Shown in pieces: positions 7,763-53,508 of a DNA stretch of 64,000 bases. The notes beneath the pieces were generated by a model that saw only the letters and a program-made list of their open reading frames with translations, made no database searches and was not told where the DNA came from. Every line of letters begins with the position of its first letter. Positions within the stretch are counted from its first letter, which is position 1. The DNA lies in IMG/VR virus record IMGVR_UViG_3300009512_000010, positions 95,935-159,934 of that record, one strand, 5' to 3'. The DNA comes from a virus. The position numbers were made by a program, and so were the translations under genes.

Positions 7763-7996
7763 TTATGCGGCAGTTTCTTCTACTTCTGGTACATCAATTT
7801 CGACCTCAGTAGCGTCATTATCAACTACAGCATCTTCACCACCATTGTGGATGATATTAGCAACCGCAATCTTCTCAGCATCTAATGCGTCACCAATCTT
7901 TGCGGTCATCATATCTTGGAACGTTGGTTCCGCTTTCGCAAAGTCTTTGACTGCTACTTGATCAATGAAGTTTGTTAGTGTATCGTTCATTTCCAT
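7763..7996 (-). CDS. Prohead core protein (gp67-like)
   Basis: 77-aa acidic protein immediately downstream of the portal gene, the gp67 position. Confidence 0.65.
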   Translation of the reverse strand: MEMNDTLTNFIDQVAVKDFAKAEPTFQDMMTAKIGDALDAEKIAVANIIHNGGEDAVVDNDATEVEIDVPEVEETAA

Positions 7997-18953: not shown

Positions 18954-19514
18954 TTAGTCTCTGTAGAGATACAAATCAACAGGGACGCAGATCCGTAGTT
19001 CGGAGTAGTAAGGGTTGACGTGGTGATAAGCGAAACTTGGGAAGATCAAGAAGTCTCCTGTCTCAGGTTGATGATGATGTCTGTTAAACATTGGATTGAA
19101 ATATTCGTCATACCCCCGATTGGCATTAGATCTAGGATCGTGTAGCACCAAGTCGCCGCCCGAATTTTGATCTTCTGCTAGTATATAGAACACGCCAGAT
19201 AAGTGTGCTCCCGAATGATTGTGAATAGTCATTGAATAGTCTTTACCGTGACCAGTGATCCAACCCTTTAGCTTGTAGTTGTCCCAATCCTCAATAGAGC
19301 AATCAATAGTACTCTTTAGGTAGTCATTAAAAGCACTCTTAACAGTACTATTAAAGGCACTCATAACAGCACTCTTATCATCCAATATGTTATATCCACC
19401 CAAATCGCTAGGTGGTTCGTTTAGATTGTATGTGCTAAATATATGTTCCACTAAACCAGTGGTGTCGAACTTTCCTTGACCCATCTGTGTAGGCCATAGA
19501 TTATGGATATCCAT
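18954..19514 (-). CDS. Putative Fe(II)/2OG oxygenase (TIGR02466-like)
   Basis: HNHSGAHLSGVFY, LVLHDPR, GDFLIFPSFAYHHV, R near the C-terminus. Confidence 0.8.
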   Translation of the reverse strand: MDIHNLWPTQMGQGKFDTTGLVEHIFSTYNLNEPPSDLGGYNILDDKSAVMSAFNSTVKSAFNDYLKSTIDCSIEDWDNYKLKGWITGHGKDYSMTIHNHSGAHLSGVFYILAEDQNSGGDLVLHDPRSNANRGYDEYFNPMFNRHHHQPETGDFLIFPSFAYHHVNPYYSELRICVPVDLYLYRD

Positions 19515-19594: not shown

Positions 19595-19624
19595 TAGGTA
19601 TAACAAATGAAAAGAGAGAATCAC

Positions 19625-19909
19625 ATGACTATGATGAACACAGTACTTGACCAAATCAATCGTATGGACGCTTCAGAAATCAACCGTGTAGTTGAAGCGA
19701 TCAAATCTCGCCGCAACTCACTGTCTTATGCCACAAACGCTACCTTGCGTGTTGGCGATATTGTCTCTTGGATGCGCCGTGATGGAAGCACTGTAACAGG
19801 ATCTGTTAAGAAAGTTAATCAGAAAACAGTTATAGTAAATGAACGTAATAACCCCAATGTTTGGAAAGTATCTTCAAGCATGCTTACTCCACTGTCTATA
19901 GGTGGATAA
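19625..19909 (+). CDS. Small hypothetical protein with SH3/KOW-like C-terminal half
   Basis: LRVGDIVSW...TGSVKKVNQKTVIV...WKVSSSML; GAGAG SD before the ATG at 19625 (the track starts at 19607). Confidence 0.6.
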   Translation: MTMMNTVLDQINRMDASEINRVVEAIKSRRNSLSYATNATLRVGDIVSWMRRDGSTVTGSVKKVNQKTVIVNERNNPNVWKVSSSMLTPLSIGG

Positions 19910-20373
19910 TGACATTTGACGAATTCTTCGACTTCTTGATGAGTGAAGAATGTTTTAATGACTGTTCGGTCTCCTTTATTAACAATAGAGGAGAACAACA
20001 GTACATAGAGCATGACGATTTATTTGCATATAGGGGCAAGGTGGTTGATCTTTGGTTTAGTGGAGATGATACGATTAAGGTAGAGGGATATGAACGTATC
20101 CAACCTTATGATGGGACTATCCATATATTCTATGCTCCTACAAATGCTCCTTCATTTCCTGTACATACAGATCCTATAGATATCTATATCGAATGCCTTG
20201 ATGGGCGTAAGATAATGGAAATTGACGACCAATACGTGATGATAGAAAAGGGAACGAAGATCTTTATTCCCGCAGACACACCACACGTTGCGCTCAACTC
20301 AGAGAAAGCATTGACATTAAGCTATGGCATTAACGACACAAACACATTCGGTAATCTACGTAAAGACTACTGA
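19909..20373 (+). CDS. JmjC/cupin-4-like Fe/2OG oxygenase
   Basis: FPVHTDPIDIYIECLDGRK...IFIPADTPHVA gives an HxD...H triad; start at MTFDEF by TAATG coupling (the track gives 19861). Confidence 0.7.
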   Translation: MTFDEFFDFLMSEECFNDCSVSFINNRGEQQYIEHDDLFAYRGKVVDLWFSGDDTIKVEGYERIQPYDGTIHIFYAPTNAPSFPVHTDPIDIYIECLDGRKIMEIDDQYVMIEKGTKIFIPADTPHVALNSEKALTLSYGINDTNTFGNLRKDY

Positions 20374-21355
20374 AACTTGTAATCTTAATTGCAGTCACTG
20401 TTTTACTTCTGGTATGAATGGGCGTAAGATCTATTTTGATCACGTGAAGACCGCAAATTGGTGTAACGAACTCGACACTGGCTCTAACCAGATCCATTTA
20501 GAGTACCATGGTGGTGAGCCTATGCTTGCGCCCATGGCACACCTACGAGAATTCCATGACATCACTAAAGCTCAATGGGGTGATCGTGCAACTCATGGTA
20601 TCACAACAAATCTTGTGTTTAAGCTTACCGAAGAGAAACTTGCATTCTTTAGTGAAATCATTACAGGTGGTAACATCGGCACCTCATGGGATCCTAATAT
20701 TCGTTTTACTAACGAACATCAAAGGAAGATGTGGGAAAATAATGTTAAGCAGTTGACAGGACTTGGGCATAGTGTCAAGTGCTTTATCTCTGTATCTAAG
20801 GATGTTATTAAACTACAACCGTTGGAGATTGCTGATTATATGGAGTCTCTTGGTGTTGCTGAGATCTCTTATGAACGACTTACCCATGATGGTAATGCCA
20901 CAATCAATACGGACATCTTTCCTCATAACTCTGAACTAGATGCTTGGTGGATGCTGATGCATGAACAAACTCAAGATCACCCTGTAGAAAACGGCTTTAT
21001 GGGATCCATCTACGACAAGTTCAACAAAGGGCAGTTCCAGATCGGCACATTCTGTCGTGATTGCGAACAAAAGATCCACACTATTAATGCAGACGGTACT
21101 GTCGCAGGCTGTCCTAACACCGCACCAACCATGCATTATGGTCATATAGATACACCAGCAAAGGAAGTAAGATTAAGTCCTAAGCGTATGGAGATCATAT
21201 CTTGTGAACAGCATGAACGTGATGAACGGTGTTACAAATGTCCAGTCTTTATGTATTGCCATTCTGACTGTCATCAGTTACAATGGATGGATGATGTGTG
21301 CCCTGCGCCTAAAACATTGATGATGAAGTTAGCGAAAGAGAAGAAATGGATTTAA
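20324..21355 (+). CDS. Radical SAM/SPASM protein
   Basis: CNLNCSHC, YHGGEPML, C-terminal C..C...GC...CYKCPVFMYCHSDC...C. Confidence 0.9.
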   Translation: MALTTQTHSVIYVKTTETCNLNCSHCFTSGMNGRKIYFDHVKTANWCNELDTGSNQIHLEYHGGEPMLAPMAHLREFHDITKAQWGDRATHGITTNLVFKLTEEKLAFFSEIITGGNIGTSWDPNIRFTNEHQRKMWENNVKQLTGLGHSVKCFISVSKDVIKLQPLEIADYMESLGVAEISYERLTHDGNATINTDIFPHNSELDAWWMLMHEQTQDHPVENGFMGSIYDKFNKGQFQIGTFCRDCEQKIHTINADGTVAGCPNTAPTMHYGHIDTPAKEVRLSPKRMEIISCEQHERDERCYKCPVFMYCHSDCHQLQWMDDVCPAPKTLMMKLAKEKKWI

Positions 21356-22383
21356 TCGTAAAGCCAACCGAAGCGTGTAACTTCAAGTGTACATTTTGCT
21401 CGTCAACAGATATCGATCCCAATGAGGTTGGTCTGTTAGACTTGAGCTATATCTATAGGTTCTTAGAAAGGTTTCCAGAGACTAACACAATTATTGTTAA
21501 TGGTGGTGACCCTCTTATGGTCAAGCCACAGTATTATCAAGATCTAATTGACCACCTTAATGAGCATGATTACCCAGCAAGCATTAGCTTTACGTCCAAC
21601 CTTTGGCCTTTCCTAATGAAACCTAAGAAGTGGTTACCCATCTTTCAGAACGAACGATTTGGTTGTGCCACATCATTTCAGTATGGTGGCGGTAGACTAA
21701 AAGGCGATTATTCAGAGTTCACAGAGGCAGACTTTTGGATGGTGTCTAATGCCATGTTGAAGCATACAGGTGAACGTCCAGATTTTATCGCAGTTATTAC
21801 AGAAGAGAATGAGCATCTCGCCATTAAGAATGTAGAACTAGCAAAAGAGATGGGCGTCGAGTGTAAGTTGAACTATGCTATGGCTTCTGGTGTACAGGGA
21901 TCTACGTATCAATTAAGCAAGATCTACGAAACATATCTTGAGATTTATGACCGTGGTCTAGCCGATCATGAGTTCAACACTAAGCAAATGATGAAACGTC
22001 TTGGGGGATCTTCTACATCATGCCCACAGAATAGAGCGTGTGATGAAGGTATCCGTGCATTTAACCCAGGAGGTGATTACTACTCTTGTGGTTCATTTGC
22101 AGATGATATGGATTATCCTATCGACTTCGAAACTGAGATGGCAGGAAAGTTGCAAACACCACTGCAACACGACCCCAACATTCAGACAATGAAGATGGCT
22201 TGTTACACATGCCCTATGTTTGAAATCTGCAATGGTTGTAAGAAAACTGTGCGTGATATGAAACGTGAAGGTACTGTTGAAGGTCATTGTAGGCAGATGA
22301 AAGCATTGGCACCTCGTATCCTTGCTACCAATAATATGAGTCCTGATGGAGTGACGCCCTATGTCGATGAATCTATCAATTAA
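21346..22383 (+). CDS. Radical SAM/SPASM protein
   Basis: CNFKCTFC, NGGDPL, C-terminal YYSCG...CYTCPMFEICNGC...HC. Confidence 0.9.
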   Translation: MDLIVKPTEACNFKCTFCSSTDIDPNEVGLLDLSYIYRFLERFPETNTIIVNGGDPLMVKPQYYQDLIDHLNEHDYPASISFTSNLWPFLMKPKKWLPIFQNERFGCATSFQYGGGRLKGDYSEFTEADFWMVSNAMLKHTGERPDFIAVITEENEHLAIKNVELAKEMGVECKLNYAMASGVQGSTYQLSKIYETYLEIYDRGLADHEFNTKQMMKRLGGSSTSCPQNRACDEGIRAFNPGGDYYSCGSFADDMDYPIDFETEMAGKLQTPLQHDPNIQTMKMACYTCPMFEICNGCKKTVRDMKREGTVEGHCRQMKALAPRILATNNMSPDGVTPYVDESIN

Positions 22384-23290
22384 CCCAACTTACTATTGTA
22401 ACTTCTCTTGCGACTTTTGTTACTTGACAAAGCAACAGTTAAATGATAGACACAAGATAAACCCAATGTGGTTACAACATTCTATGGGTCAAATAACAGA
22501 TCCTATAACTCATGTTGATTTATATGGCGGTGAGATTGGATTACTAACACCAGAGTATTATTATTCGATCAAAGAGGTGATTAGGAGATACTATGGTGGT
22601 AGTATCCACATCAACACAAATCTGTCAGCATTTCCAGACTTCTTCCGTGATGATGATGTTACCCTATCGGTATCTTATGACTTCCACGCAAGAGAGAAAG
22701 AACAGTTTGTTCTAAATAACATGATGAATGCTAATAAGGATCTTGCTGTCCTTATCCTTGCATCGCCTAAAGTATTGAAGATGGATGTGGAGTTTATGAT
22801 CTTCACTCTTAACATGGTTTCTAATGTCAAGTCGGTAGAGATCAAGCCTTACTCTATCAACCAAGCCAATGCATTTGATGTTACTCATAAAGACTTTGAG
22901 GACTTCGTTATTAGGTTTGATGAGGCTAAGACTAAGAAGAACTTTGACTTCCAAAACATACACAACATTTATAGAAGTATAGATAAAGAGTACAATGCCT
23001 TTTCCAATGACCACGTCTATATCACACCATCTGGTAAGTTTGGCGTATTGGAGTTTGATAAGCATGATAAAGAGTACTTCAAGGAGTATAGCACATATTA
23101 TGAATATAAACAATGGGCAGATAACGAAGCTGTTGATAATCTTAGCGACATTTGTCGTAGCTGTACCTATTTCGGTACATGTCTTACCGAGCACTATCGG
23201 TACGTATTGGATTTAGACAACAGTTGCAATGGATATAAAGGATTACTAGATTACTATGGAAAATTGGAAAGCGAGACAGAAGGCGTATAA
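22361..23290 (+). CDS. Radical SAM protein with C-terminal Cys cluster
   Basis: CNFSCDFC, LYGGEI, CRSCTYFGTC...SC. Confidence 0.88.
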   Translation: MSMNLSINPTYYCNFSCDFCYLTKQQLNDRHKINPMWLQHSMGQITDPITHVDLYGGEIGLLTPEYYYSIKEVIRRYYGGSIHINTNLSAFPDFFRDDDVTLSVSYDFHAREKEQFVLNNMMNANKDLAVLILASPKVLKMDVEFMIFTLNMVSNVKSVEIKPYSINQANAFDVTHKDFEDFVIRFDEAKTKKNFDFQNIHNIYRSIDKEYNAFSNDHVYITPSGKFGVLEFDKHDKEYFKEYSTYYEYKQWADNEAVDNLSDICRSCTYFGTCLTEHYRYVLDLDNSCNGYKGLLDYYGKLESETEGV

Positions 23291-23654
23291 TCATATGACA
23301 ACAAACCACCGTGACGATTTGACGGATGTTGATGTATTGAATAGGCCAGAATTTATTGTAGAAGATGCTTTGATGCACTTCGATAAGAGAGTGGATCAGT
23401 GGATCTACCCAGCGAAGTCGTTCTTCGTTGCAATCTGCTATGCCAATTGGATAGCCGAAGACTTTGGTGAGCAGTTCTATGATGTACTAAACTATAACGA
23501 ATTACTACCAGACGATCCACACTTCCTACCATATGAGAGAAGTAAAGAGATCTATGATGAGATCCTTTCTAAAGTTAATTTTGATAATACTAATGGTATG
23601 GTTCCAGATGTCTATGAGTATTACCAAGAGGAATTCATGATTGGACAACTTTGA
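23256..23654 (+). CDS. Hypothetical protein within radical SAM operon
   Basis: 132-aa acidic ORF overlapping both neighbours; WIYPAKS motif; no family recognised. Confidence 0.7.
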   Translation: MENWKARQKAYNHMTTNHRDDLTDVDVLNRPEFIVEDALMHFDKRVDQWIYPAKSFFVAICYANWIAEDFGEQFYDVLNYNELLPDDPHFLPYERSKEIYDEILSKVNFDNTNGMVPDVYEYYQEEFMIGQL

Positions 23655-24723
23655 CTTCACCAAACAGCTACTGGAATCTAAACGTCCAGACATAGCCGAG
23701 ATTGAGATGACACTCTTTGAGAACTGTCACCTCAACTGTTCTTTTTGTCACCACGACAAGAAGTCTACAGTAGGCTTGTCTCGTGAAGAGATCTTCTCCA
23801 AGATCCCTCTAGTAGAAGAGCATGTTATTAAGATGAAGAACCGTGCAGACGTTATTCAGATCAATATGCTTGGTGGAGAATTGTTTCAAGACCGAATATC
23901 TGAGTGGGCTTATGAGGTCTACTACGACTTCTTAGTTGAGATTAAGAAGATCTATGATGAACATAAGCAGAACATTAAAGTAGTTTGGGTAACATCCTTT
24001 CAGTTTAGTAAACGTGAGAGAGTTCAAAAACTACTTGATGATTTGAATGCAATAGACATTCCATCCTATATTATCTGTTCTTATGACTTTGATGGTAGAC
24101 CTGTCAAAGGACCTTATGGCAAGAACATAGAATACTTTGCTGATTATATCACATCTATTAATATGGTTGCAACCACTATTTCTATTAAAAAGTTTATGGC
24201 AGATGAGGACGAGTACTTTCACTATCTGTATAATAAGTTTGATAACTTCTACTTTGATGATTACATTCCTGATCGTGGTTATGACTATATGATCCCATCA
24301 GATAGTGAGTATCTTGAGTTCCTAAAGTTTGTGTATCATAACTATCCAGACATCAATCCTATCAAGGATCTGATCTATAACGAAACAAATCATATGCATT
24401 GCTTGGCTCTTAACAAGGTTACAATCTTTCCTGATAACTCTACATCAAACTGTAGATGGGATAGATATGACCAACGTGACTTCAACACGAAGTATGAGCC
24501 TAAAGATAATGCTGGTATGATGCAAGCTTATATGGATGAGAATGGTTGCTTGTCATGTAAGTGGTACAACAAGTGTGGCTTTAGATGTTATACACAATGG
24601 GATTGGAAGAACCGTGAACGAGATCTGCCCGACTGTATAATGCGCATGTGGTTTAACTACATGGACAAGACAGGACAAAACCAAATCACAGGATTTGATT
24701 ACGTGGGAACAAACACTCCGTAA
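23641..24723 (+). CDS. Radical SAM protein with SPASM-like C-terminus
   Basis: CHLNCSFC, MLGGELF, HC...NC...CLSCKWYNKCGFRC...DC. Confidence 0.88.
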   Translation: MDNFDFTKQLLESKRPDIAEIEMTLFENCHLNCSFCHHDKKSTVGLSREEIFSKIPLVEEHVIKMKNRADVIQINMLGGELFQDRISEWAYEVYYDFLVEIKKIYDEHKQNIKVVWVTSFQFSKRERVQKLLDDLNAIDIPSYIICSYDFDGRPVKGPYGKNIEYFADYITSINMVATTISIKKFMADEDEYFHYLYNKFDNFYFDDYIPDRGYDYMIPSDSEYLEFLKFVYHNYPDINPIKDLIYNETNHMHCLALNKVTIFPDNSTSNCRWDRYDQRDFNTKYEPKDNAGMMQAYMDENGCLSCKWYNKCGFRCYTQWDWKNRERDLPDCIMRMWFNYMDKTGQNQITGFDYVGTNTP

Positions 24724-25708
24724 CACCGTGATGCTCCATGTAGGATTGCACACCCTTATCGATACACGTCATCATATGAGCACATCCAGAACAACTATCT
24801 GTATTGGCAGTGTATGCTAATTGCGACCCAAAGTTGTCGCTTTTGGCACTTATCCAAGATTCAATATCATTCTCATCATGTACTTTAAACTTGTCTGTGC
24901 CTATCTTAACAATATCGTAGACGAATGGTGTCCAGAAGAAGTTGCCATTACAGTATGTGTAGTTAAGTTCTAAGGATCCGCCCTGTGCTTGATCGATGAT
25001 AGTAGAGGGAAAAGCGTCTTCTGCCCAATCATCTAGCTTCTTCCACTTGTCTATTAGATGTTTCTGTACCTTAAACTTATCCGCTCTAAGAAACGATGGG
25101 TTAAGAGTTAAGATCGTGTCAAACTCATCGTCAGCAATATCTGAGAACTCTATGACTTTGGCATTGGTCTTATCGTCATTACCCATATTCATTACAAGAT
25201 AGTAATTCAGATCGTCATCGAATAGGTTTAGCTTATCGATCATATCTTTGTATCCATGGGGGAACTTTTTAGGATCGATTGCTATGTTAGCATCGTACAT
25301 GAACCCATCTATTTTGGGTATGCTGTTAAGTAATTCGATAACCTCCGTTGAGATGTTGGTTAGAGTCGTCACGAATTGTATAGTAGAAACCTTACTCAAA
25401 CACTCTCGAAATGTTTCATCTCGCAATAACTCTATGACGTTGTTGTTGCCGAATAGATCAGTTGGTCCGATATTGATAGTGGAAACCCTATACCCATTAT
25501 TATTGAACAAGTCAATAGCATTGTTTAATCTTTCGTAGGATCCCATGTTAGTGCCTAGTTTGTTTACAAAACAACCCACACACTTGAACTCACATCCTGA
25601 CAGAACTTCAGCATTGAATATAACCTTGATCTCGTGTCCTTCGTTAAAGGATAGATCAAAGTCTGCATCAGCCTGAGCTTCTTTCTTGTTGTTAGTAACT
25701 ATTCCCAT
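24686..25708 (-). CDS. Radical SAM-like protein, IGPTD family paralogue 5
   Basis: GCEFKCVGCFV, NIGPTDLFG, CSGCAHMMTC...ECL; start MGIVTN at 25708 (the track gives 25741). Confidence 0.8.
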   Translation of the reverse strand: MGIVTNNKKEAQADADFDLSFNEGHEIKVIFNAEVLSGCEFKCVGCFVNKLGTNMGSYERLNNAIDLFNNNGYRVSTINIGPTDLFGNNNVIELLRDETFRECLSKVSTIQFVTTLTNISTEVIELLNSIPKIDGFMYDANIAIDPKKFPHGYKDMIDKLNLFDDDLNYYLVMNMGNDDKTNAKVIEFSDIADDEFDTILTLNPSFLRADKFKVQKHLIDKWKKLDDWAEDAFPSTIIDQAQGGSLELNYTYCNGNFFWTPFVYDIVKIGTDKFKVHDENDIESWISAKSDNFGSQLAYTANTDSCSGCAHMMTCIDKGVQSYMEHHGVTECLFPRNQIL

Positions 25709-26825
25709 GGTAATCCTCGTTATCGAATAGAGCAATAACATCTTTGTTTAATATACATTCAGATCTTCCCTCAAACATCGTATCCATAACTTTGGGTATC
25801 AATCTGTTGGAGCACACGTTGAGGTACTTACACGTTCCGCATTCTTTATTAGAACTATTTATTATCTGATCTGTAACGACTTGGTGTTTGTAATTTAAGA
25901 TACCTTCTACTGTATGTGTAGTGATCTCGAAGTCATCTTTATAGATCTGAGCATTCTCATAGATGAATGGTGACGCATATAGTTTGCCGTTGTGGATGTT
26001 CACCACCGCATAGTGAAATGCTTTGTGAGATAGATCCCCCTGTAAGAAGTGAAACTTGTTCTTAAAACGATTGACATCACTAGACAAGTTTGTCAACATA
26101 TCATTCCAAGCGAATAGTTTGTCTCCATGCTTGGTAGAATGGTTAAAGGATCTGACAACAGAGGGTAAGATTTCAATGACCGTGTCGTAGGTTTCACGTA
26201 TGTAGTCGATAGCTTCGTATAGCCTGTCTTCGATACCCTCTACAATGTTAGTTGCCATAGAGATCTCAAAGTCCAACGAACTCTCTTTGAAGTTCATCAC
26301 TCTGTTTCTCAATGCTTTCCTGTATCTTTTATCATCCAATACACGCACAAGATCTAAAGCAATCTGCACATCCCAAGACTCAACAACCTTACCAAGAGGA
26401 GACTTTTCGATAGCCTTGATCTTACCTAGAATATCATCTTCCGATAGAGACCCCATGATAGAACAGTTATGTTGAATGTTTCTATTACCTTCTGGTATCA
26501 TAGAGATGGCATCAGATAATCTGGCATTGTGTATGATTTCTTCTAGGTTTTCTGCACCATAGAAGTCTGTAGGTCCGATAACAATATCGTCTAACACGAC
26601 ATCAGTTCTACCATGTAATTCGTATGCCAGATTGTGAAACATCTTAATTGACTTGGGATTCCAATTACCTCTACGTTTAACAAAACAACCAGGACACATG
26701 TAAGAGCACCCTTCAAGTAATTCTAAAGTAACTTGGATCTTGTACTGCGTCATTGAGGATACTGAAGTAAACTCTTCTCCCACACCACCGTGCTTAACAA
26801 TGTCTTTCCAACTATTATTTAACAT
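25692..26825 (-). CDS. Radical SAM-like protein, IGPTD family paralogue 4
   Basis: GCSYMCPGCFV, VIGPTDFYG, CGTCKYLNVC...ECI. Confidence 0.8.
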   Translation of the reverse strand: MLNNSWKDIVKHGGVGEEFTSVSSMTQYKIQVTLELLEGCSYMCPGCFVKRRGNWNPKSIKMFHNLAYELHGRTDVVLDDIVIGPTDFYGAENLEEIIHNARLSDAISMIPEGNRNIQHNCSIMGSLSEDDILGKIKAIEKSPLGKVVESWDVQIALDLVRVLDDKRYRKALRNRVMNFKESSLDFEISMATNIVEGIEDRLYEAIDYIRETYDTVIEILPSVVRSFNHSTKHGDKLFAWNDMLTNLSSDVNRFKNKFHFLQGDLSHKAFHYAVVNIHNGKLYASPFIYENAQIYKDDFEITTHTVEGILNYKHQVVTDQIINSSNKECGTCKYLNVCSNRLIPKVMDTMFEGRSECILNKDVIALFDNEDYHGNSY

Positions 26826-27978
26826 AGGAGATGTCCTTAATTCGTTCTAGTTCTGGATCGTCATCTGTTGTAACAAGAAACCTCTTACGATAACCCTTCT
26901 TATCGTTTTCAACAGAATAGTCATCCCACTGATACATCTTCTGAGCAGGTGCATTATAGTTATGTATATGTTCCATCATATTCTGCTTAGGAGCAATACA
27001 ACGATCAACTCCAAGGTAATCTCTGAGTAGAATAATCTTTCTATTGTAACAAGACATCATCAAGGGACAAGTTTCGCACTCTGTGCCCTTGACCCTTTCC
27101 AACTGAGATTGTACAATAGGAAGCACATCGTCAAAGTTATCCACTTTAAACATCTCATGGTACAATGCCATGTTTTCGTACATAAACGGCGAAATGAACC
27201 ATTCGCCCTTTTTATAGTTTAGTACGGTATAGTTCATGCCACCGTGTGAGTGGTCTACCATTATGTTATTTAATTCTGTTTCTTTATAAGCACTTAGCTC
27301 GTTAAAGAAGTCATTAAACTTGTCTAATGTATCTAATATTAGTTTAGGCTTGTGAGAACGTGAAACAGACGGTACAAAGTCTAATATCGTTTTAAAGCGT
27401 TCTATTGCACTTTTATGCAGTTTAACGTAGTCTAGGCCATAATCACGTATATTGACCACAAACGTATATGTCACTTCATGTTCTAGGTTTTTATCAATGT
27501 ACTCCAACATCTTGTGAATATGCTGTACATAATCCTCATCAAAGAACTTGTTAACATTCGTTGCGATACCAATTTCAATCTCAGTATCTATGTTAATATT
27601 ATTTGTTATGAAAGCAACCCATCGTGGAAGATCCCCATCAATCAGTGTGCTGACAAATGCAAGAATGGGTGAGTTCTCATTAATGATATCGACTAGAGAT
27701 GGCATGACCTCATAGAAGTTTTCGGACGCAAGAAAGTCTGTAGGTCCGATAAGGATCTCGTCAACCAAGATGCCTCTATCAGTTATGTCTCGTATGAAGT
27801 CTTTGGCTTTATGGATCTGATGTTCATCACTAGCATTACCTCTGCGATGCACAAAACATCCCGGACATTTGTGATGACAACCATCTAGGATATCAAGCTG
27901 AAGTTTAACCGCCGAGACTGGTTTAGTTTGCGTCTCTGTGGTTAGCTCGTAATATAAGTTGTTCTTAATTAACGGCAT
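26815..27978 (-). CDS. Radical SAM-like protein, IGPTD family paralogue 3
   Basis: GCHHKCPGCFV, LIGPTDFLA, CETCPLMMSC...RCI. Confidence 0.8.
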   Translation of the reverse strand: MPLIKNNLYYELTTETQTKPVSAVKLQLDILDGCHHKCPGCFVHRRGNASDEHQIHKAKDFIRDITDRGILVDEILIGPTDFLASENFYEVMPSLVDIINENSPILAFVSTLIDGDLPRWVAFITNNINIDTEIEIGIATNVNKFFDEDYVQHIHKMLEYIDKNLEHEVTYTFVVNIRDYGLDYVKLHKSAIERFKTILDFVPSVSRSHKPKLILDTLDKFNDFFNELSAYKETELNNIMVDHSHGGMNYTVLNYKKGEWFISPFMYENMALYHEMFKVDNFDDVLPIVQSQLERVKGTECETCPLMMSCYNRKIILLRDYLGVDRCIAPKQNMMEHIHNYNAPAQKMYQWDDYSVENDKKGYRKRFLVTTDDDPELERIKDISYVK

Positions 27979-28990
27979 GCATATATTCTTTCAAGGCAAC
28001 ACAAGTGTTCAACTTCCTTGACTTCATATACACGTGTATGTTTCTTTCTGCGCAACTCATTAGGTATTCGCATGTGTTACAATCGTCTACTGTCTTTGCA
28101 TACTCTAGGTTAGTGCCCAACCATTCCTGATCCATTGTAGTTTGAAACTCAGGTGTTCTCTGAATGATTGCGTCATATAAAAATGGATTGATGTATAATT
28201 TGCCGTTGTAGAAACTATAGTTCTGACAGCCATATCCATTAAACCTAGCATCAAAGAATGTGTATAAGTTCCTCCACTCATCATTTATCTTCTGCTTACG
28301 CAGATCTGCCCTAAACATATCAAGAAACTTATTGACCTTACCACGTGCATTCTTGTCTGTCAAGAAAGAAGGTGCGATGACTATGGGTGCGTTAAAGTCT
28401 TCCTTGACTTTGGCACACAGATCATTATATCCTATTCTGTCAAACAAATCAGGAGTGTAGTTAACTCTGAACTGAACAGATCCAATGGTAAACATCTTTA
28501 TGTTTTCAAGGAAGTTGGGGTCAAGGTCATCATCAAGATACGCCTCAACATCTAACACAATCTTAAAGTCGATATCTGGAATTCTATTGATGTTACGATA
28601 GATCTGCCAAATCATATCAAGTTTAGGCTTGACAACCTTTGGGTCTTGTAATAGTGTAGATGTAAATCCGACACCACTTATAGCATACAGGTCTGTCATC
28701 GATGGGTGTGTCATCACCTCATCAAAGTTCTGAGCATCAAAGATGTCAGTTGGACCTATAGTAATTTCATCTGGATAGAACTGTCCCTTACACAACTCAT
28801 CGTATAGAGTAGCCATGTGATCAGGTGATGTCAAGTTCTTTCTTGGGATAAAGCATCCGGGACACATCTGATCACAACCATGGAGAATATCCAAGTTGAT
28901 CTCTGTGCGTAGGAAATCGGTATTAACAGGGCTTATGCCATGAACGTAACGATAGTACCCTGCTTCTGTTGCATTAAGCTTTGTTATCAT
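27965..28990 (-). CDS. Radical SAM-like protein, IGPTD family paralogue 2
   Basis: GCDQMCPGCFI, TIGPTDIFD, CNTCEYLMSC...TCV. Confidence 0.8.
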   Translation of the reverse strand: MITKLNATEAGYYRYVHGISPVNTDFLRTEINLDILHGCDQMCPGCFIPRKNLTSPDHMATLYDELCKGQFYPDEITIGPTDIFDAQNFDEVMTHPSMTDLYAISGVGFTSTLLQDPKVVKPKLDMIWQIYRNINRIPDIDFKIVLDVEAYLDDDLDPNFLENIKMFTIGSVQFRVNYTPDLFDRIGYNDLCAKVKEDFNAPIVIAPSFLTDKNARGKVNKFLDMFRADLRKQKINDEWRNLYTFFDARFNGYGCQNYSFYNGKLYINPFLYDAIIQRTPEFQTTMDQEWLGTNLEYAKTVDDCNTCEYLMSCAERNIHVYMKSRKLNTCVALKEYMHAVN

Positions 28991-29732
28991 CTAGAATCAA
29001 CATGAAATCGTCGGGAAAGAATGATACGATCTGATCCGTAATCTTAGTCTCACACATAATATGATAGAGATCTTTGCCGAAATATTTGGGGGAGTCGTTA
29101 AACACTTGTTTATTATATTCAATCGACAATCCGTTTTTACTCAAGATTAGTAGAAGCGCATCATAGCCTGTAGTGAGAAGTCTGGCAATATTAGGTCCAC
29201 ACGTAGCTGGTTTATCAACTACCTTGATGTCTTCAACCAGTTCTTTTAGATTTTTTTCGGTTAGCTTCATATCATCGTCAAGCCCATCGTATAGTTTAGT
29301 TAGGGCAAATGGTACTGAAGATGCAACTGTGGCGATTAAATCGTCAACCAATTGTTCATTATCTTCAATAAACTTATCGATAAGTTTTGGTGGGAACAGA
29401 TATAATAGTTGGCTCTCTTGTTCACCAATGTCATGTCTATATTTGAACTTAATAATAAGAACAATGATCCTAGCCAATAGAGGACAGTCAACCATAAAGT
29501 CTGATTTGATATACGCTTTAATCAAGTCTTCGTCAATAGAAGAGAACGTTGTCTTAAAGTTAGTGTTAGCCAAATAGATGATAATGTGCTGTGCAGACAA
29601 CTTCTCTTTACTCTTAGCATAATCAACCCAAAGAACGTATTCTTCAAGTTCACTCTTGTCTTTATAGATCTGTACTAAGTGTTGAGGAGATAGTGGTAAC
29701 TCATAACACGTACTCTCGTCTGGAGTTGTCAT
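28974..29732 (-). CDS. Hypothetical protein within radical SAM operon
   Basis: Start MTTPDES at 29732 with AAGGA SD (the track gives 29810); helical, no family recognised. Confidence 0.7.
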   Translation of the reverse strand: MTTPDESTCYELPLSPQHLVQIYKDKSELEEYVLWVDYAKSKEKLSAQHIIIYLANTNFKTTFSSIDEDLIKAYIKSDFMVDCPLLARIIVLIIKFKYRHDIGEQESQLLYLFPPKLIDKFIEDNEQLVDDLIATVASSVPFALTKLYDGLDDDMKLTEKNLKELVEDIKVVDKPATCGPNIARLLTTGYDALLLILSKNGLSIEYNKQVFNDSPKYFGKDLYHIMCETKITDQIVSFFPDDFMLILDDNKA

Positions 29733-29745
29733 AATATAGTATTCC

Positions 29746-30849
29746 TTACAATGGGTACTTGTGGATAAGATATGGAATGCGGTTTTGTCTCTTAGAGAAG
29801 AACTGCACATCTGTATTTATCAGCTTCAAATCTGCGGTTAGATTGTCCATGTCAAAGTCATTCTGCAATACCTTGCGCACGATAGGAAACACATTCTTAA
29901 ACTCTGTGTATAGATCCATATATTCCCAACCATCTGCGTCACTATCTGCCTTAGATTGGTGAGCCGCAAGGAATGCAGTATCGTCTTTAACCAAGTTCCA
30001 CAACTCTTCTAGTTGATAGAAAGCGGCAGTATAGTTTCCAGCATTAGCCTTAGTAACATAACAGGATCTGATCCACGTAGTCTTGTTGGTTGCATATTCT
30101 GCATTACGTGATACATTGGCATTCATCCAATCGATGACTGCTAAAATATAAGCCAAGTAGTGGCGTCTTGATGTAAAGTGTTCCATCACATCTTGTGCCA
30201 TTGTGGATTGGTGTACTGTAAACTTCTCTTTGATTAGTAGTTGTACTGAATTATTTGTATAGTAATCGTTTAAGAAGAACAGTAGGTCATAACTGAAGTT
30301 CTTGCCATTCTGATAGATCACCGTATAAGGAGTTACTGCCCCACCACCTGAGTCTGTGGAGAATAGTGTGTCTACATGATTTGATACATCTAAAATAGTT
30401 TCATTGTCAAGCACCATAGTGAGCATAACATCCATAGAGAAGATCTTCTCAAGGAATGCTCCAACCATTGCATTAACGTTAGTAGACGAGTCATAGAAAC
30501 CAGATGCCGTAATAAGACCTGATGTGTAACGTGCAAAAACTGTGATCATATCTTCAACAGTAGAAAATAGAATGATAACCTTATCACTGTTTTGAATATA
30601 GTCGATATCATCTACATCAGCGTAATCCATATAACTAATCAAATCGTTAGCATTTGCTCTAATCGTATTAGCAATAGACTCATACTGAGCCGCCAATAAT
30701 TGATCACCATTAGATCGGTGTACAATCACGATGTTACGTGGGGTTGCTGTGTGATAATACGAGTTTAACTCGAAACACACTGTTCCCAAGTTGTTAATAG
30801 TTGAGATATACTTTGAGTTGTTTAAGTAATAGAGATTTTGACCGATCAT
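29746..30849 (-). CDS. Hypothetical protein within radical SAM operon
   Basis: 367-aa ORF tightly packed in the operon; no family recognised. Confidence 0.7.
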   Translation of the reverse strand: MIGQNLYYLNNSKYISTINNLGTVCFELNSYYHTATPRNIVIVHRSNGDQLLAAQYESIANTIRANANDLISYMDYADVDDIDYIQNSDKVIILFSTVEDMITVFARYTSGLITASGFYDSSTNVNAMVGAFLEKIFSMDVMLTMVLDNETILDVSNHVDTLFSTDSGGGAVTPYTVIYQNGKNFSYDLLFFLNDYYTNNSVQLLIKEKFTVHQSTMAQDVMEHFTSRRHYLAYILAVIDWMNANVSRNAEYATNKTTWIRSCYVTKANAGNYTAAFYQLEELWNLVKDDTAFLAAHQSKADSDADGWEYMDLYTEFKNVFPIVRKVLQNDFDMDNLTADLKLINTDVQFFSKRQNRIPYLIHKYPL

Positions 30850-30851
30850 GG

Positions 30852-32030
30852 TTACGCTCCGTCTTTCATTTTGTATTTAGTTGCATCATCATTCCATGTA
30901 AAGTCGAATGGATTATAGTGTTTCAATGTTTCTTTAGGTAATACACACCCATCAATATTGAGACTATCTTGAGCCTCGAATACCAATCTACTTGCACAAG
31001 CCATAGCAAACTGACAGTCTGCACAATCTTTTACCTTACTAGACTTATTTATACCCTTTGTAATCAGTTCGTTCTTACGTTGTAAGATCTCTTCGAATGT
31101 AAGTCCTGTTACGTCTAGGTTCTTATTAGTTATAAAGAACGCTTGTTCGTGAAGCATTACATTCAAGTGTGTCGTAGGTCCGTTCTCTCCTGGAACAATA
31201 GTAATGCCCACAAAGTTGATTGAGTTACAGTAGAGATTAGCCATAGACATAACAGTCTCACTAGCATTGTTCTCATCAATAACCGACTCAAGGAACTTAT
31301 TCCACGCAAACAAGTTGTTACGTTGAATGATTTGATTAGGTGCCCTAGCGAATGCAGGGTTCATTTCCATAATAGTGCCGAAGTCGTTTACAGAACGATC
31401 AATCAGCCTATTGTATTTCTCTTTGTCAATCTGCTTACCGACAACGTTAGAAGCCTGTAATGTCCAAGACCAATCCATCATCTTTGGAGTTTCGTTCTTA
31501 AAGAACTCTATTTTCTCCATAACTCTGTTATAGTAATCGTCATCATCCAACATCTCGTTAATACGACCAATCGGCATAATGAATTCGATAACCATGTCAC
31601 GTCTATACGCATCTAGGTCATCCAGAATAGCAAAGATCTCTCTGACCTTTTCCATTGAAGCATTGTCGAACTTAGCTGGAGACGCAATACGTGCATTAGT
31701 GTGTTCTCTCATTATAGCTTGAACAGTTGGGTTTGTCAATACTTCTTTTGTATTCTTAGCAGAAAATAGATCTGTAGGTCCGATAACAAACTCTCTTAGG
31801 TTACCACCCACACGTAATACACCATCAGCAAGTTCCTTAGCACGATCAATGATCTGTTGATTGCTTACAGGATCAATTGCTTTGTCAACGAAACATCCAA
31901 GACAGCCCTGTTCACATCCAGCCAGAACTTCCATCTGAATAAGAACATCGAACTTTGTTGCATCAGATGGTGCCAGACTTTCGGGTCCTGAGTATCTCAT
32001 CTGCTTACAATATGATTGTTGCATTGTCAT
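30852..32030 (-). CDS. Radical SAM-like protein, IGPTD family paralogue 1
   Basis: GCEQGCLGCFV, VIGPTDLFS, CADCQFAMAC...GCV; start MTMQQSY at 32030 with GAGGA SD, 1 nt after the upstream stop (the track gives 32123). Confidence 0.8.
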   Translation of the reverse strand: MTMQQSYCKQMRYSGPESLAPSDATKFDVLIQMEVLAGCEQGCLGCFVDKAIDPVSNQQIIDRAKELADGVLRVGGNLREFVIGPTDLFSAKNTKEVLTNPTVQAIMREHTNARIASPAKFDNASMEKVREIFAILDDLDAYRRDMVIEFIMPIGRINEMLDDDDYYNRVMEKIEFFKNETPKMMDWSWTLQASNVVGKQIDKEKYNRLIDRSVNDFGTIMEMNPAFARAPNQIIQRNNLFAWNKFLESVIDENNASETVMSMANLYCNSINFVGITIVPGENGPTTHLNVMLHEQAFFITNKNLDVTGLTFEEILQRKNELITKGINKSSKVKDCADCQFAMACASRLVFEAQDSLNIDGCVLPKETLKHYNPFDFTWNDDATKYKMKDGA

Positions 32031-32031
32031 G

Positions 32032-32418
32032 TTATCGTCTTCCTCTTGATGTATGACAGCTGGTGTGACAGCTTGAATGGCATAATACTGCTGAGATAGA
32101 TCTGTTAGTAAGTCTATCTTCAATGAGGTCTACGGTTCTTCGCACTCCGTCCTCTAATGTGTCTACGATGTCTTGTGAATATATCCTACTACCTGCGGAG
32201 ACTCCAGCATCAATATAGTTATCAAATAGAGAGTCAGCCGCACCTGTATATTCGAACCTATGTGTCGTAGTATTAGATCCTGTTCCACCCATAGCAGTGG
32301 GATTGTTATTCTGATATGCTGTAGTTGTTATAGTAATAGTTTTGTCAAACGTTCTTAACTTACCACCTGCGTAAGTTTGCATGTAGCTATCTATACTATC
32401 TCTGGTTAAATTGCCCAT
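32032..32418 (-). CDS. Cys-His-Xaa-Ser repeat protein B (candidate radical SAM substrate/precursor)
   Basis: 128 aa ending LCHSSCHTSCHTSRGRR; paralogue of 32418..32804; immediately upstream of the radical SAM operon. Confidence 0.75.
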   Translation of the reverse strand: MGNLTRDSIDSYMQTYAGGKLRTFDKTITITTTAYQNNNPTAMGGTGSNTTTHRFEYTGAADSLFDNYIDAGVSAGSRIYSQDIVDTLEDGVRRTVDLIEDRLTNRSISAVLCHSSCHTSCHTSRGRR

Positions 32419-32804
32419 TATCTACGACCTCTTGATGTGTGACAACTAGTGTGACAAGAGCTATGACATAACAATGCTGAAATGGATCTGTCAGTGATAC
32501 GAGATTCAACCTGATCTACTGTTCTTTGCATAACACTATTAATTGAGTCGATAACATCTTGACTGTACATTCGACTTCCTGTGTATATTCCACCATCCAA
32601 ATCGTTATTATAAGTTGAGTCAGCCGCACCTGTATATTCAAAGCGTTGGTTAAAGCCAGCCGAGCTTTGCGGTCCCGCTTGAGTCTGCGACACTGTTTGT
32701 AATGTATATGCAGTTACAGTAAACGTCATCGTTTTATCAAACGTCCTTAACTGGCTTCCAGCCTGTGCCTGTAAACTAGTGTTATTTTGTGCATAGGTTG
32801 GCAT
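32418..32804 (-). CDS. Cys-His-Xaa-Ser repeat protein A (candidate radical SAM substrate/precursor)
   Basis: 128 aa ending LCHSSCHTSCHTSRGRR; shares LRTFDKT, RFEYTGAADS, GSR.YSQD, RTVD and RSISA with B. Confidence 0.75.
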   Translation of the reverse strand: MPTYAQNNTSLQAQAGSQLRTFDKTMTFTVTAYTLQTVSQTQAGPQSSAGFNQRFEYTGAADSTYNNDLDGGIYTGSRMYSQDVIDSINSVMQRTVDQVESRITDRSISALLCHSSCHTSCHTSRGRR

Positions 32805-33878
32805 TTATACTTTAACCTCAACTAGCCCTTCACCATCCTCTAGTGCCACACCCACAAAGTTCAAGAAGTTCATGCGCATTGCGGCAGTCGTATCAGCTGG
32901 AAGTGCTTTACATTTACCATTATCATCTGCTACTATATAGTCGCCTTTTTGAGCAGTACCATTTATCTTACAAGGGATACGTCCTTTAAGCGCAATGAAA
33001 GGCCATAGAGGATCCTCCATGTTATCTTCATTAACGTTCATTCGAACACCCGGACGTGTAGAGATAATGCCAGCGATAGCCATACCCTTTTTGTATAGAG
33101 TTACCTCTTTTTCGCCACCAACAGCCAACAGATCTCCATGTTCATATCCTCTATCGGCTAAATATTTCTCCGCTAAATCCGACCAGTTTGCAGACGTTGC
33201 TGTACCATTAAATGTACCATCATTAGCAATATATGATGTATCTGTACCATTTCTTCTAAACTGAACAATTCTGTCTGATGATTCGTCTGCAACAATATAC
33301 CATCTATTTGAGTGGTACTGAATTTTACCTTTTGTGCCCGGATCACCTGTCCAGTTAGATGACGCATTGGAGAAAAGACCACCGTTGGTGATATCAAGGT
33401 TACCACCACCGAACTGACCAATCTCACCTTTTTGTCCTTTAGATCCTGTGGCTCCAACTTCTCCCTTTTGTCCTTTTGCTCCAGTTACACCAACTTCGCC
33501 TTTTTGACCTTTTGCTCCAGTTACACCAACTTCGCCTTTTTGACCTTTTTGACCTTTTTCACCAGTAAGTCCAACTTCGCCCTTTTGTCCTTTTTGACCC
33601 TTATCTCCAGTAAGTCCAACTTCACCTTTTTGACCCTTTTGACCTTTAACGCCAACTTCGCCTTTTTGTCCGATCTCGCCTTTTTGACCTTTTGCGCCAG
33701 TGTCTCCAGTCTGTCCTTTTTGTCCTTTTTCGCCCTTTTGTCCCTTTGGGCCAGTTGGAGCATCGGTAAAGGTAGTGGCTCTCCACACACCTTTTGCACT
33801 TTCAAATGTCCACGTGACATTGTTAGCGGTGTGGGTTGCGCCATTCGATGGCGATGATGGGAAATTAATTGCCGCCAT
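32805..33878 (-). CDS. Collagen-like fibre protein with C-terminal chaperone/peptidase G2-like domain
   Basis: N-terminal INFPSSPSNG...WTF module, about 38 Gly-X-Y triplets, C-terminal SDLAEKY...GIISTRPG..MN...ALKGRIPCK...KGDYIV. Confidence 0.8.
   Translation of the reverse strand: MAAINFPSSPSNGATHTANNVTWTFESAKGVWRATTFTDAPTGPKGQKGEKGQKGQTGDTGAKGQKGEIGQKGEVGVKGQKGQKGEVGLTGDKGQKGQKGEVGLTGEKGQKGQKGEVGVTGAKGQKGEVGVTGAKGQKGEVGATGSKGQKGEIGQFGGGNLDITNGGLFSNASSNWTGDPGTKGKIQYHSNRWYIVADESSDRIVQFRRNGTDTSYIANDGTFNGTATSANWSDLAEKYLADRGYEHGDLLAVGGEKEVTLYKKGMAIAGIISTRPGVRMNVNEDNMEDPLWPFIALKGRIPCKINGTAQKGDYIVADDNGKCKALPADTTAAMRMNFLNFVGVALEDGEGLVEVKV
33411..33752 (-). repeat. Gly-X-Y collagen repeat, Lys-rich and Pro-poor
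   Basis: By manual count 22 of 38 triplets are G-X-K (mostly GQK), with a single Pro. Confidence 0.95.
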
Positions 33879-45641: not shown

Positions 45642-45643
45642 GT

Positions 45644-45675
45644 TATAAATACCCCTGAATACTTCACTATTTATA
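45644..45675. promoter_or_regulatory. Paired late promoters serving divergent operons
   Basis: TATAAATA on + at 45644-45651 and on - at 45668-45675, between the two divergent start codons (45641 and 45687). Confidence 0.8.
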
Positions 45676-45686
45676 GGGAAATTAAA

Positions 45687-53507: not shown

Positions 53508-53508
53508 A

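What the first reader, a model, noticed from the sequence alone, without database searches (positions are those of the whole stretch)
19909..32804. Phage-encoded RiPP-like system: two (Cys-His-Xaa-Ser)3-RGRR proteins next to nine radical SAM enzymes
Seen: two tandem paralogous 128-aa genes end in the identical 17-mer LCHSSCHTSCHTSRGRR, which contains their only cysteines. They are followed directly (1-nt gap) by an operon of five radical SAM-like paralogues and two unknown proteins. That operon converges on a second one with four radical SAM/SPASM proteins, a JmjC-like oxygenase and an unknown protein. Established: a long leader plus short Cys/His/Ser-rich C-terminal core beside SPASM radical SAM genes is the layout of ranthipeptide/sactipeptide clusters (the SCIFF core CQTSCQSACKTSC has the same period-4 Cys spacing) and of His-Xaa-Ser (Hxs) repeat systems. 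Inference: the tail is cross-linked or otherwise modified (Cys-to-Ser/Thr thioethers or His cyclophanes). No exporter or leader peptidase is visible and the genes sit at the end of a late fibre operon, so the product may be a modified virion protein such as a fibre tip rather than a secreted peptide. I know of no characterised phage system like this.
Basis: partly seen in the sequence, partly recalled or inferred. Interest (0 to 1): 0.95.

Follow-up and report, generated by a model that had tools for sequence, protein, structure and literature searches.

The report
Radical-SAM cassette maturing Cys-His-tailed virion proteins
A marine T4-like phage carries, directly behind its collagen-like fibre genes, nine radical-SAM enzymes, two iron oxygenases and a helper protein built around two small proteins ending in an invariant (Cys-His-x-Ser)x3-RGRR tail. 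The same undescribed kit occurs in jumbo phages and predatory bacteria and probably finishes a virus-particle protein chemically.

Summary
In detail: two 128-aa genes end in the same 17-mer, and nine CX3CX2C genes, a cupin, a 2OG oxygenase and three unknowns flank them. The tail is the defining feature of a large family. It always sits at the extreme C-terminus, Cys and His are invariant, Ser is not, and the protein bodies are unrelated. It is tightly linked to the same enzyme set in marine phages, in Ralstonia, Burkholderia and Agrobacterium jumbo phages, and in Bdellovibrionota and Flavobacteriaceae chromosomes. Among 301 Bdellovibrionota genomes the tail occurred in 8 of the 10 with the A2 enzyme and in 0 of 291 without it. 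One unknown (unk278) is a core component predicted to bind the N-terminal helix of the tailed protein. A family member, Agrobacterium phage Atu_ph07 gp170, is in the published virion proteome and runs far above its size. The enzymes are not in that proteome. In bacteria the cassette also lies beside short fibre genes. No curated family threshold is met (HXS, SCIFF, PapB, triceptide, anSME), and I found no paper describing the system. The covalent modification itself and its chemistry remain inferred. This scan already found the same cassette on DNA of at least ten other genomes. One earlier check reported that part of the claim fell, but it did not say which part.

The parts
32418..32804 (-). 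pre1: 128-aa tailed protein (N-terminal helix, beta-hairpin, long helix, (CHxS)3-RGRR tail). It starts directly after the stop of the collagen-like fibre gene.
32032..32418 (-). pre2: paralogue of pre1 (58% identical) with the identical 17-residue tail
30852..32030 (-). B1: divergent radical SAM (CEQGCLGC, IGPTD, C-terminal CX2CX5C..C). The ATG start at 32030 is preferred over the TTG at 32123.
29746..30849 (-). unk367: unknown protein conserved in the marine phage cassettes only
28974..29732 (-). unk278: core helper protein, mostly helical with a few short strands, homologous to the ~230-aa gene that follows the tailed gene in other cassettes. Predicted to bind residues 1-30 of pre1.
27965..28990 (-). 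B2: divergent radical SAM paralogue
26815..27978 (-). B3: divergent radical SAM paralogue (PF04055 E 6.5e-4)
25692..26825 (-). B4: divergent radical SAM paralogue (weak SPASM hit)
24686..25741 (-). B5: divergent radical SAM paralogue; its 3' end overlaps that of A4
23641..24723 (+). A4: radical SAM with a partial SPASM motif; core component
23256..23654 (+). unk132: small core protein of unknown function (phrog_20737), also present in the RSL2 and bacterial cassettes
22361..23290 (+). A3: radical SAM with one C-terminal CX2CX5C..C motif; core component
21346..22383 (+). A2: radical SAM/SPASM, the best conserved core enzyme (50-60% identical in bacteria and jumbo phages)
20324..21355 (+). A1: radical SAM/SPASM (full 7-Cys motif), usually encoded next to the tailed gene in other cassettes
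19909..20373 (+). cupin/JmjC-like Fe(II) oxygenase; core component
18954..19514 (-). 2OG-Fe(II)_Oxy_5 oxygenase, with homologues inside the RSL2 cassette and beside the tailed gene in L016
32805..33878 (-). Context: collagen-like fibre protein. Its C-terminal domain is always encoded just before the tailed gene in the marine loci.

Best explanation
This is one copy of a widespread, undescribed radical-SAM protein-maturation cassette. Its substrates are pre1 and pre2, small proteins with an N-terminal recognition helix, a variable body and an invariant C-terminal tail: (Cys-His-x-Ser/Asn/Ala)x3-Arg-x-Arg-Arg-COOH. The helper unk278 holds the N-terminal helix. The SPASM-type enzymes A1-A4, the divergent B-type enzymes (five paralogues here) and the two Fe(II) oxygenases then alter the Cys/His tail covalently, most likely by cross-links or oxidation at Cys and His. 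The finished protein is built into the virion, probably with the fibre encoded just upstream. The enzymes stay behind in the cell. Shown: the motif, the linkage, the core gene set, and virion residence of a family member. Predicted: helper binding. Inferred: that the tail is modified, what the chemistry is, and the fibre partner.
For: 1. Tail conservation. 120 homologues all end in CHxSCHxSCHxSRGRR. A profile search gave 168 hits with E up to 0.001; among the 148 of the 150 best that are not already counted among the 120, 122 end exactly in (CHxx)n-RGRR, 121 of them with three repeats, on bodies of 58-609 aa. The two tails in the window differ in 9 of 17 codons but in no residue.
2. Linkage found from the motif alone. 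All 18 GTDB loci carrying the tail pattern have cassette radical-SAM homologues (A- or B-type) within 8 kb, although the protein bodies are unrelated.
3. Co-occurrence. In 301 Bdellovibrionota genomes A2 is in 10 and the tail in 8, all among those 10; none of the other 291 has it. Fisher p = 3e-14.
4. Same gene set in unrelated phages. RSL2 ORF066-081 and Atu_ph07 gp164-172.
5. Helper. unk278 is homologous to the gene that follows the tailed gene elsewhere (hhalign 97.5%). The co-fold score is 0.82 against a best control of 0.00. That mark was reached by 58 of 80 solved complexes and 2 of 110 mismatched pairs. The runs agree in at least 42% of contacts and the partner pLDDT is at least 84. Contacts fall on pre1 residues 1-30.
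6. Virion residence. Atu_ph07 gp170 ends in CHSSCHASCHNSRSRR. It is in the virion proteome with 8 peptides and 35% coverage, and it is most abundant in the top gel band although it is 31.9 kDa. gp165, 168, 169, 171 and 172 are not listed (PMC6102473 Table S5).
7. Fibre linkage. The gene abuts a collagen-like fibre gene here and in all marine loci. Short S74-chaperone fibre genes lie 3-17 kb from the tailed gene in 9 of 10 bacterial genomes.
8. Enzyme type. A1 and A2 resemble peptide- or protein-modifying SPASM enzymes such as DarE, PapB, AmcB, DynA and anSME.
Against: No mass or structural data show any modification of any tail. Every match to a peptide maturase is far below its family cut-off, so the chemistry cannot be read from homology. 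Five to nine enzymes for a 16-residue tail is more than any simple scheme needs, so some may act elsewhere. The virion evidence comes from a distant member that shares only the tail, the N-terminal helix pattern and synteny with pre1/pre2. In the co-fold the precursor itself had low confidence (pLDDT 44-47). An earlier check in this scan of the same claim on other DNA reported that part of it fell, without saying which part.
Confidence: 0.6

Rival explanations
1. The tail is a metal- or iron-sulfur-binding motif that is not covalently modified. The tailed protein would be a metallated fibre part, or a scaffold or carrier on which the radical-SAM enzymes build or deliver a cofactor, or the enzymes would act on another substrate such as the fibre.
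For: Only Cys and His are invariant, and Ser can be Asn, Ala or Asp. The i, i+4 spacing would put the Cys on one face of a helix, and the model gives a weak helix at 115-122. From established knowledge, T4 fibre tips bind metal through His. Marine T4-like genomes rich in radical-SAM genes also carry Fe-S assembly genes (PMC5332604).
Against: Metal binding alone does not explain an invariant R-x-R-R C-terminus. It also does not explain a dedicated helper for the N-terminal helix, or the strict coupling to four distinct SPASM-type enzymes that resemble peptide maturases.
Confidence: 0.17
2. The cassette makes an HXS-like effector. The matured basic Cys-His-x-Ser tail would bind DNA or block genome entry, and the phage would use it for superinfection exclusion or counter-defence.
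For: The bacterial HXS system uses two radical-SAM enzymes and a small partner to mature a protein with His-x-Ser repeats rich in basic residues. A +8 Da change maps to one repeat, and the effector blocks phage DNA entry (PMC13128918). The tail here contains three H-x-S units and ends in RGRR.
Against: HxsB and HxsC scores are 27 and 25 bits against cut-offs of 370 and 268. The tailed proteins have no signal peptide or peptidoglycan-binding domain. HXS is 99.7% Pseudomonadota with a fixed D-B-C-A order. Here the gene lies in a late fibre operon and a family member is in virions.
Confidence: 0.08
3. It is a classical RiPP: the body is a leader, and the modified 16-residue tail is cut off and released as a peptide or cofactor.
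For: The layout fits: precursor beside SPASM enzymes, an N-terminal recognition helix, and a short Cys-rich C-terminal core.
Against: No protease or exporter appears in any cassette examined. The bodies are long, diverse and partly folded. The body of Atu_ph07 gp170 is found in virions at 35% coverage.
Confidence: 0.05

Closest known systems
HXS antiphage system (HxsA/B/C/D; Li et al., Nat Commun 2026, PMC13128918)
   Same: Radical-SAM enzymes plus a small partner mature a protein, not a short peptide, at His-x-Ser repeats next to basic residues. The substrate stays a functional protein.
   Different: HXS has two enzymes and a fixed four-gene order, and its effector is periplasmic, binds peptidoglycan and is processed at the N-terminus. 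Here there are 5-9 enzymes plus oxygenases, an invariant Cys before each His, a strictly C-terminal tail, no export signal, fibre linkage and virion residence. Family cut-offs are far from met.
Ranthipeptide/SCIFF systems (CteA/CteB; PapA/PapB)
   Same: Cys residues at a period of four in a C-terminal core, beside SPASM radical-SAM enzymes. A1 aligns end to end with PapB at E 1e-9.
   Different: PapB scores 38 bits against a cut-off of 340. The precursors match no SCIFF model. Those systems use one enzyme and a short released peptide. Here His is invariant and the would-be acceptor (Ser) is not.
Triceptide (three-residue cyclophane) maturases such as AmcB, YhhB, XyeB and GrrM
   Same: H-x-(S/N/A) fits the aromatic-x-X3 motif these enzymes cross-link (established knowledge). 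A1-A3 give weak hits to AmcB, YhhB, XyeB and GrrM.
   Different: All scores are 17-36 bits against cut-offs of 310-450. Triceptide precursors are short peptides handled by one enzyme. The invariant Cys has no role in that chemistry.
Anaerobic sulfatase-maturating enzyme (anSME, PDB 4K36)
   Same: A SPASM enzyme that oxidises a Cys or Ser of a full-length protein. It is the only solved structure that A2 matches by sequence (E 5e-6).
   Different: TIGR03942 scores 37.5 bits against a cut-off of 349, and the target motif C/S-x-P/A-x-R is absent from the tail.
QhpD/QhpC of quinohemoprotein amine dehydrogenase (from my own knowledge)
   Same: A SPASM enzyme installs several Cys thioether cross-links in a small subunit that stays part of a larger assembly.
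   Different: That system has one enzyme and a periplasmic redox enzyme, with no Cys-His repeat. A1 scores only 25.9 bits against a cut-off of 453.

Membership tests
Radical SAM superfamily (PF04055) | CX3CX2C cluster motif near the N-terminus | tested here: met
   All nine proteins carry it, at residues 11-70.
Radical SAM superfamily (PF04055) | Score over the Pfam gathering cut-off (29.5 bits) | tested here: inconclusive
   Only A2 passes (31.0). A1, A3, A4 and B3 score 19-22 bits. B1, B2, B4 and B5 give no hit, but they are 20-30% identical to B3.
SPASM domain (TIGR04085 / PF13186) | Seven-Cys pattern CX9-15GX4C ... CX2CX5CX3C ... C, and score over the cut-off | tested here: met
   Met for A1 (29.9 against 27, full pattern). 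A2 has the pattern but scores 21.1 bits. A4 is partial. A3 and B1-B5 have only CX2CX5C...C, so the feature is not met for them.
HXS system | HxsB (TIGR03978, cut-off 370) and HxsC (TIGR03977, cut-off 267.9) equivalogs | tested here: not met
   A1 scores 27.4 bits and A2 25.2 bits.
HXS system | HxsA effector with a peptidoglycan-binding domain, five HxS repeats and N-terminal processing | tested here: not met
   pre1 and pre2 match no NCBIfam or Pfam family and have no signal-like N-terminus. The H-x-S units are C-terminal and each is preceded by Cys.
SCIFF / ranthipeptide | Precursor matching the SCIFF model, and a maturase over the family cut-off (PapB NF047865, 340 bits) | tested here: not met
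   The precursors give 0 families at E up to 0.1. A1 scores 38 bits against PapB.
Triceptide maturases (AmcB, YhhB, XyeB, GrrM) | Score over the equivalog cut-offs (310-450 bits) | tested here: not met
   The best score is A1 against AmcB at 35.7 bits; the others are 17-25 bits.
Triceptide maturases (AmcB, YhhB, XyeB, GrrM) | C-C bond between the aromatic ring of residue 1 and C-beta of residue 3 | not testable with these tools
   This needs MS/MS or NMR of the matured tail.
anSME | TIGR03942 over 349 bits, and a C/S-x-P/A-x-R target motif | tested here: not met
   A2 scores 37.5 bits and A1 30.6 bits. The motif is absent from the tail.
CHxS-tail cassette (unnamed family defined in this scan) | Protein ending in (C-H-x-x)n-R-x-R-R, with A1-A4-type radical-SAM genes, a unk278-type helper, unk132, a cupin and a 2OG oxygenase within a few kb | tested here: met
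   All components are present in the window and share homology with RSL2, Atu_ph07 and the bacterial cassettes.

The most novel reading that the evidence does not exclude
The radical-SAM enzymes install covalent cross-links through the Cys/His tail that tie the small protein into a very large, SDS- and heat-resistant species in the particle, for example to itself as an oligomer or to a fibre protein. This would be the first radical-SAM-made covalent link in a virus particle. Predatory bacteria would use the same chemistry for their short surface fibres.
Probability: 0.25. Interest if true: 0.92.

Novelty: new variant of a known kind. Interest (0 to 1): 0.8.

Why it matters
Radical-SAM maturation is known for short peptides (RiPPs) and for a few enzymes and one defence effector, but not for virus-particle proteins. 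Here a 14-kb kit, about 9% of the genome, is kept by abundant marine phages; near-identical DNA appears in runs of 11 studies. Unrelated jumbo phages of plant pathogens and predatory bacteria keep it too, always around the same 16 residues and usually beside fibre genes. If the tail is modified, this is a new post-translational chemistry acting at the host-contact apparatus. It has cultured models ready for testing (RSL2, FLC6, Atu_ph07). It also offers several new radical-SAM families (A1-A4 and B) and a new substrate-recognition protein.

Tried and rejected
- **Cultured-phage searches.** Megablast of the whole cluster and tblastn of pre1 against cultured phages gave no match. Relatives were reached only through B1, A2 and the RSL2 tailed protein.
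- **pre1 fold searches.** Foldseek PDB had nothing at E up to 0.001 (best E 0.44). BFVD returned only family members. VIA-align wide had a best Z of 5.3. No usable match.
- **unk278 fold searches.** Foldseek PDB's best E was 0.13 and VIA-align wide's best Z was 5.0. Both are uninformative. Atlas look-ups of unk278 and unk132 gave nothing usable.
- **PDB sequence search.** A1, A3 and A4 gave nothing relevant; A2 matched only anSME weakly.
- **PADLOC.** Only generic viperin-model hits to the radical-SAM core.
- **unk367.** It shows no detectable relation to the ~365-aa gene of the other cassettes (hhalign probability 0.3%).
- **coll357.** It shows no similarity to the bacterial S74 fibre proteins. 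Its Peptidase_G2 hit is below the cut-off.
- **Literature.** Searches for phage radical-SAM/RiPP systems found no description. Jumbo-phage papers only list the genes.
- **DNA hypermodification role (PMC8989533 type).** Rejected because the linkage is to the tail, not to DNA-modification genes.
- **Metatranscriptome contigs.** They cover parts of the cluster, and one 2.6-kb contig spans the 5' part of unk367, B1, pre2 and most of pre1. DNA carry-over cannot be excluded, and the uncovered stretches mean nothing.
- **Earlier check.** I could not learn which part of the earlier checked claim fell.
Full report
**What is in the window.** The window is the 3' 64 kb of a 159.9-kb IMG/VR myovirus record estimated 91% complete. 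Its structural genes are at most about 45% identical to those of T4-like cyanophages. Near-identical DNA occurs in marine metagenome runs of 11 studies.

On the minus strand, late-type structural genes run without large gaps. Two collagen-like fibre proteins (33882-35582 and 32805-33878) lead straight into pre1 (32418-32804), pre2 (32032-32418), B1, unk367, unk278 and B2-B5. The plus-strand run converges on this one. It holds the cupin, A1, A2, A3, unk132 and A4 (19909-24723). A 2OG-Fe(II)_Oxy_5 gene lies just before it, at 18954-19514 on the minus strand.

pre1 and pre2 are 128 aa each and end in the same 17 residues, which hold their only Cys. Nine of 17 tail codons differ without any amino-acid change. 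All nine enzymes have CX3CX2C. A1 and A2 have a full SPASM pattern and A4 a partial one. A3 and B1-B5 have one CX2CX5C...C motif. Curated models see them only weakly.

**The tail defines a large family.** A word-seeded search gave 120 clusters at 38-94% identity to pre1. Nearly every one ends in CHxSCHxSCHxSRGRR; three have a lost or altered repeat. A profile search of 1.8 billion representatives gave 168 hits with E up to 0.001. Among the 148 of the 150 best that are not already counted among the 120, 122 end exactly in (CHxx)n-RGRR, 121 of them with three repeats. Most of the others vary only in R-[S/N/T]-R-R. Bodies range from 58 to 609 aa.

Across the family Cys and His are invariant, while the fourth position is Ser, Asn, Ala or Asp. 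A few members have four repeats. The motif is always at the extreme C-terminus.

**Linkage to the enzymes.** All 12 related IMG/VR loci keep the same gene order as far as their contigs reach. In one, L012, the A operon is inverted but still adjacent.

A scan of GTDB genomes with the back-translated tail alone found 18 loci. All 18 have cassette radical-SAM homologues (A- or B-type) within 8 kb, although the protein bodies are unrelated to pre1.

In an even sample of 301 Bdellovibrionota genomes, A2 homologues occur in 10 and the tail in 8. All 8 are among those 10, and 7 have the two on the same contig 2-14 kb apart. None of the other 291 genomes has the tail, and a reversed-pattern control found nothing (Fisher p = 3e-14).

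One such locus lies beside PilQ/PilM and ABC-transporter genes. Another sits 2.2 Mb into a contig. These copies are therefore chromosomal.

Among cultured phages the cassette is in the RSL2/RSF1/FLC6/S13 group, in Agrobacterium phage Atu_ph07, and judging by A2 in Sinorhizobium phage Phosso and Pseudomonas phage pPa_SNUABM_DT01. Papers on these phages merely list cupin, radical-SAM and 2OG genes as accessory.

**The core set.** Comparing cassettes gives this core:
- the tailed protein;
- a ~230-aa helper, which is unk278 here (hhalign 97.5%, E 6e-12);
- A1, A2, A3 and A4;
- at least one B-type enzyme;
- unk132;
- the cupin;
- one or more 2OG oxygenases.

Bacteria often add a B12-binding radical-SAM enzyme. 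The marine phages have expanded B to five paralogues, duplicated the substrate, and added unk367.

**How the substrate is handled.**
- The AlphaFold model of pre1 (pLDDT 81) has an N-terminal helix (4-19), a long hairpin, a long helix (81-102) and a poorly defined tail. It matches no known fold.
- unk278 folds confidently (pLDDT 87, mostly helical), also without a clear match.
- Co-folding pre1 with unk278 scored 0.82 against a best control of 0.00. That mark was reached by 58 of 80 solved complexes and 2 of 110 mismatched pairs. The runs agree in at least 42% of contacts and the partner pLDDT is at least 84. All confident contacts fall on pre1 residues 1-30, although pre1 itself had low pLDDT in the complex.
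- The unrelated bacterial and jumbo-phage tailed proteins also begin with an amphipathic helix and lack signal peptides.

The picture this suggests is a helper holding the N-terminus while enzymes work on the C-terminus. This is a prediction, not a measurement.

**Where the product goes.** A note from earlier work in this scan claimed that one family member is in phage particles, and I checked this. Atu_ph07 gp170 (296 aa) ends in CHSSCHASCHNSRSRR. It lies in the order cupin gp172, A1-like gp171, gp170, helper-sized gp169 (263 aa, in the helper's position), then further radical-SAM genes.

In Attai et al. 2018 (PMC6102473, Table S5), gp170 is in the virion proteome with 8 unique peptides and 35% coverage. 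It was found in bands 1-9 and was most abundant in band 1. Other proteins of about 30 kDa peak in bands 7-8, and a 137-kDa protein peaks in band 2. The neighbouring gp176 and gp177 are also listed, but the enzymes, cupin and gp169 are not.

So a tailed protein is a particle component, and it migrates far above its size after boiling in SDS. That fits a covalent or very stable assembly but does not prove one.

**Fibre linkage.** Fibre linkage recurs. Here and in the marine loci the tailed gene directly follows a collagen-like fibre gene, whose C-terminal domain has only a sub-threshold Peptidase_G2 match. In 9 of 10 bacterial genomes a short protein of 340-440 aa carrying the S74 fibre chaperone domain lies 3-17 kb from the tailed gene. 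The per-genome chance of that is 0.5-7%.

**Expression.** RNA-library contigs from one study cover parts of both operons, and one spans the 5' part of unk367, B1, pre2 and most of pre1. This is only weak evidence of expression.

**What it is not.** No curated family threshold is approached:

| Family model | Best score here (bits) | Cut-off (bits) |
|---|---|---|
| HxsB | 27 | 370 |
| HxsC | 25 | 268 |
| PapB | 38 | 340 |
| AmcB | 36 | 425 |
| anSME | 37.5 | 349 |

The precursors match nothing. The HXS defence system (PMC13128918) is the closest described analogue in logic but differs in every defining feature.

Because Ser is replaceable, a Cys-to-Ser thioether cannot be the conserved step. 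Chemistry centred on Cys and His remains open, including a His-x-X3 cyclophane, Cys oxidation, or Cys-His or intermolecular links.

**Verdict.** Its RiPP framing, its phage-only scope and its proposed chemistry need revision. I put 0.6 on radical-SAM maturation of a virion or fibre-module protein. The rivals are 0.17 for a non-covalent metal or cofactor role, 0.08 for an HXS-like function and 0.05 for a released peptide.

The scan has met this cassette on at least ten other genomes.

Noticed in passing
window 17000-18928 (-): A 642-aa fusion of a GT25 domain, a PLOD-type glycosyltransferase domain (E 1e-45) and a weak 2OG oxygenase domain. It lies near two collagen-like fibre genes rich in Gly-X-Lys, so it may be a one-protein collagen lysine hydroxylation and glycosylation enzyme.
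   Followed up: partly
window 44697-55546: A second, separate enzyme cluster. It holds a well-scoring radical SAM/SPASM gene (44697-45641, -) and three small radical-SAM genes (50704-53233). It also holds a DegT-type aminotransferase, a QueC-like gene, a nitroreductase-like gene and a Nol-type carbamoyltransferase. It looks like sugar or small-molecule tailoring. One more radical-SAM gene lies outside the window at G000:C1:25242-25610.
   Followed up: partly
window 19600-19909 (+): RNA-library contigs from two runs of one study both begin at 19600, 7 nt before a 100-aa DUF2187-like ORF (19607-19909). The cupin's ATG shares its first base (19909) with the last base of that ORF's stop codon. A DNA contig runs on across 19600. 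This may be the transcript start of the plus-strand operon.
   Followed up: no
window, whole: The T4-type late-promoter word TATAAATA occurs 14 times against 4.4 expected. Sites at 43144 and 43205 (-) lie upstream of the fibre operon, and one at 31046 (-) lies inside B1, 200 nt before unk367.
   Followed up: no
L038 (Atu_ph07) 7983-8873; PMC6102473 Table S5: The 31.9-kDa tailed protein gp170 is most abundant in the top SDS-PAGE band of purified virions. The 480-kDa neighbour gp180 is absent from the part of Table S5 read here (gp20-gp197; later rows of the table were not read).
   Followed up: partly
L023 864-1433; L027 120-764: Two Bacteriovoracia tailed proteins have four Cys-His repeats instead of three. 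An earlier scan note reports a phage with 13, which I did not check.
   Followed up: no
L037 439-4075 (-); L035 7655-9324; L036 17895-19621: Bacterial cassettes are flanked by one to three short S74-chaperone fibre proteins (~340 aa), each paired with a conserved ~200-aa protein that has a faint Peptidase_G2 match.
   Followed up: partly
L011 15531-16231: About 700 nt with no match to any window protein lies between the B3 and B4 homologues in one related phage locus.
   Followed up: no
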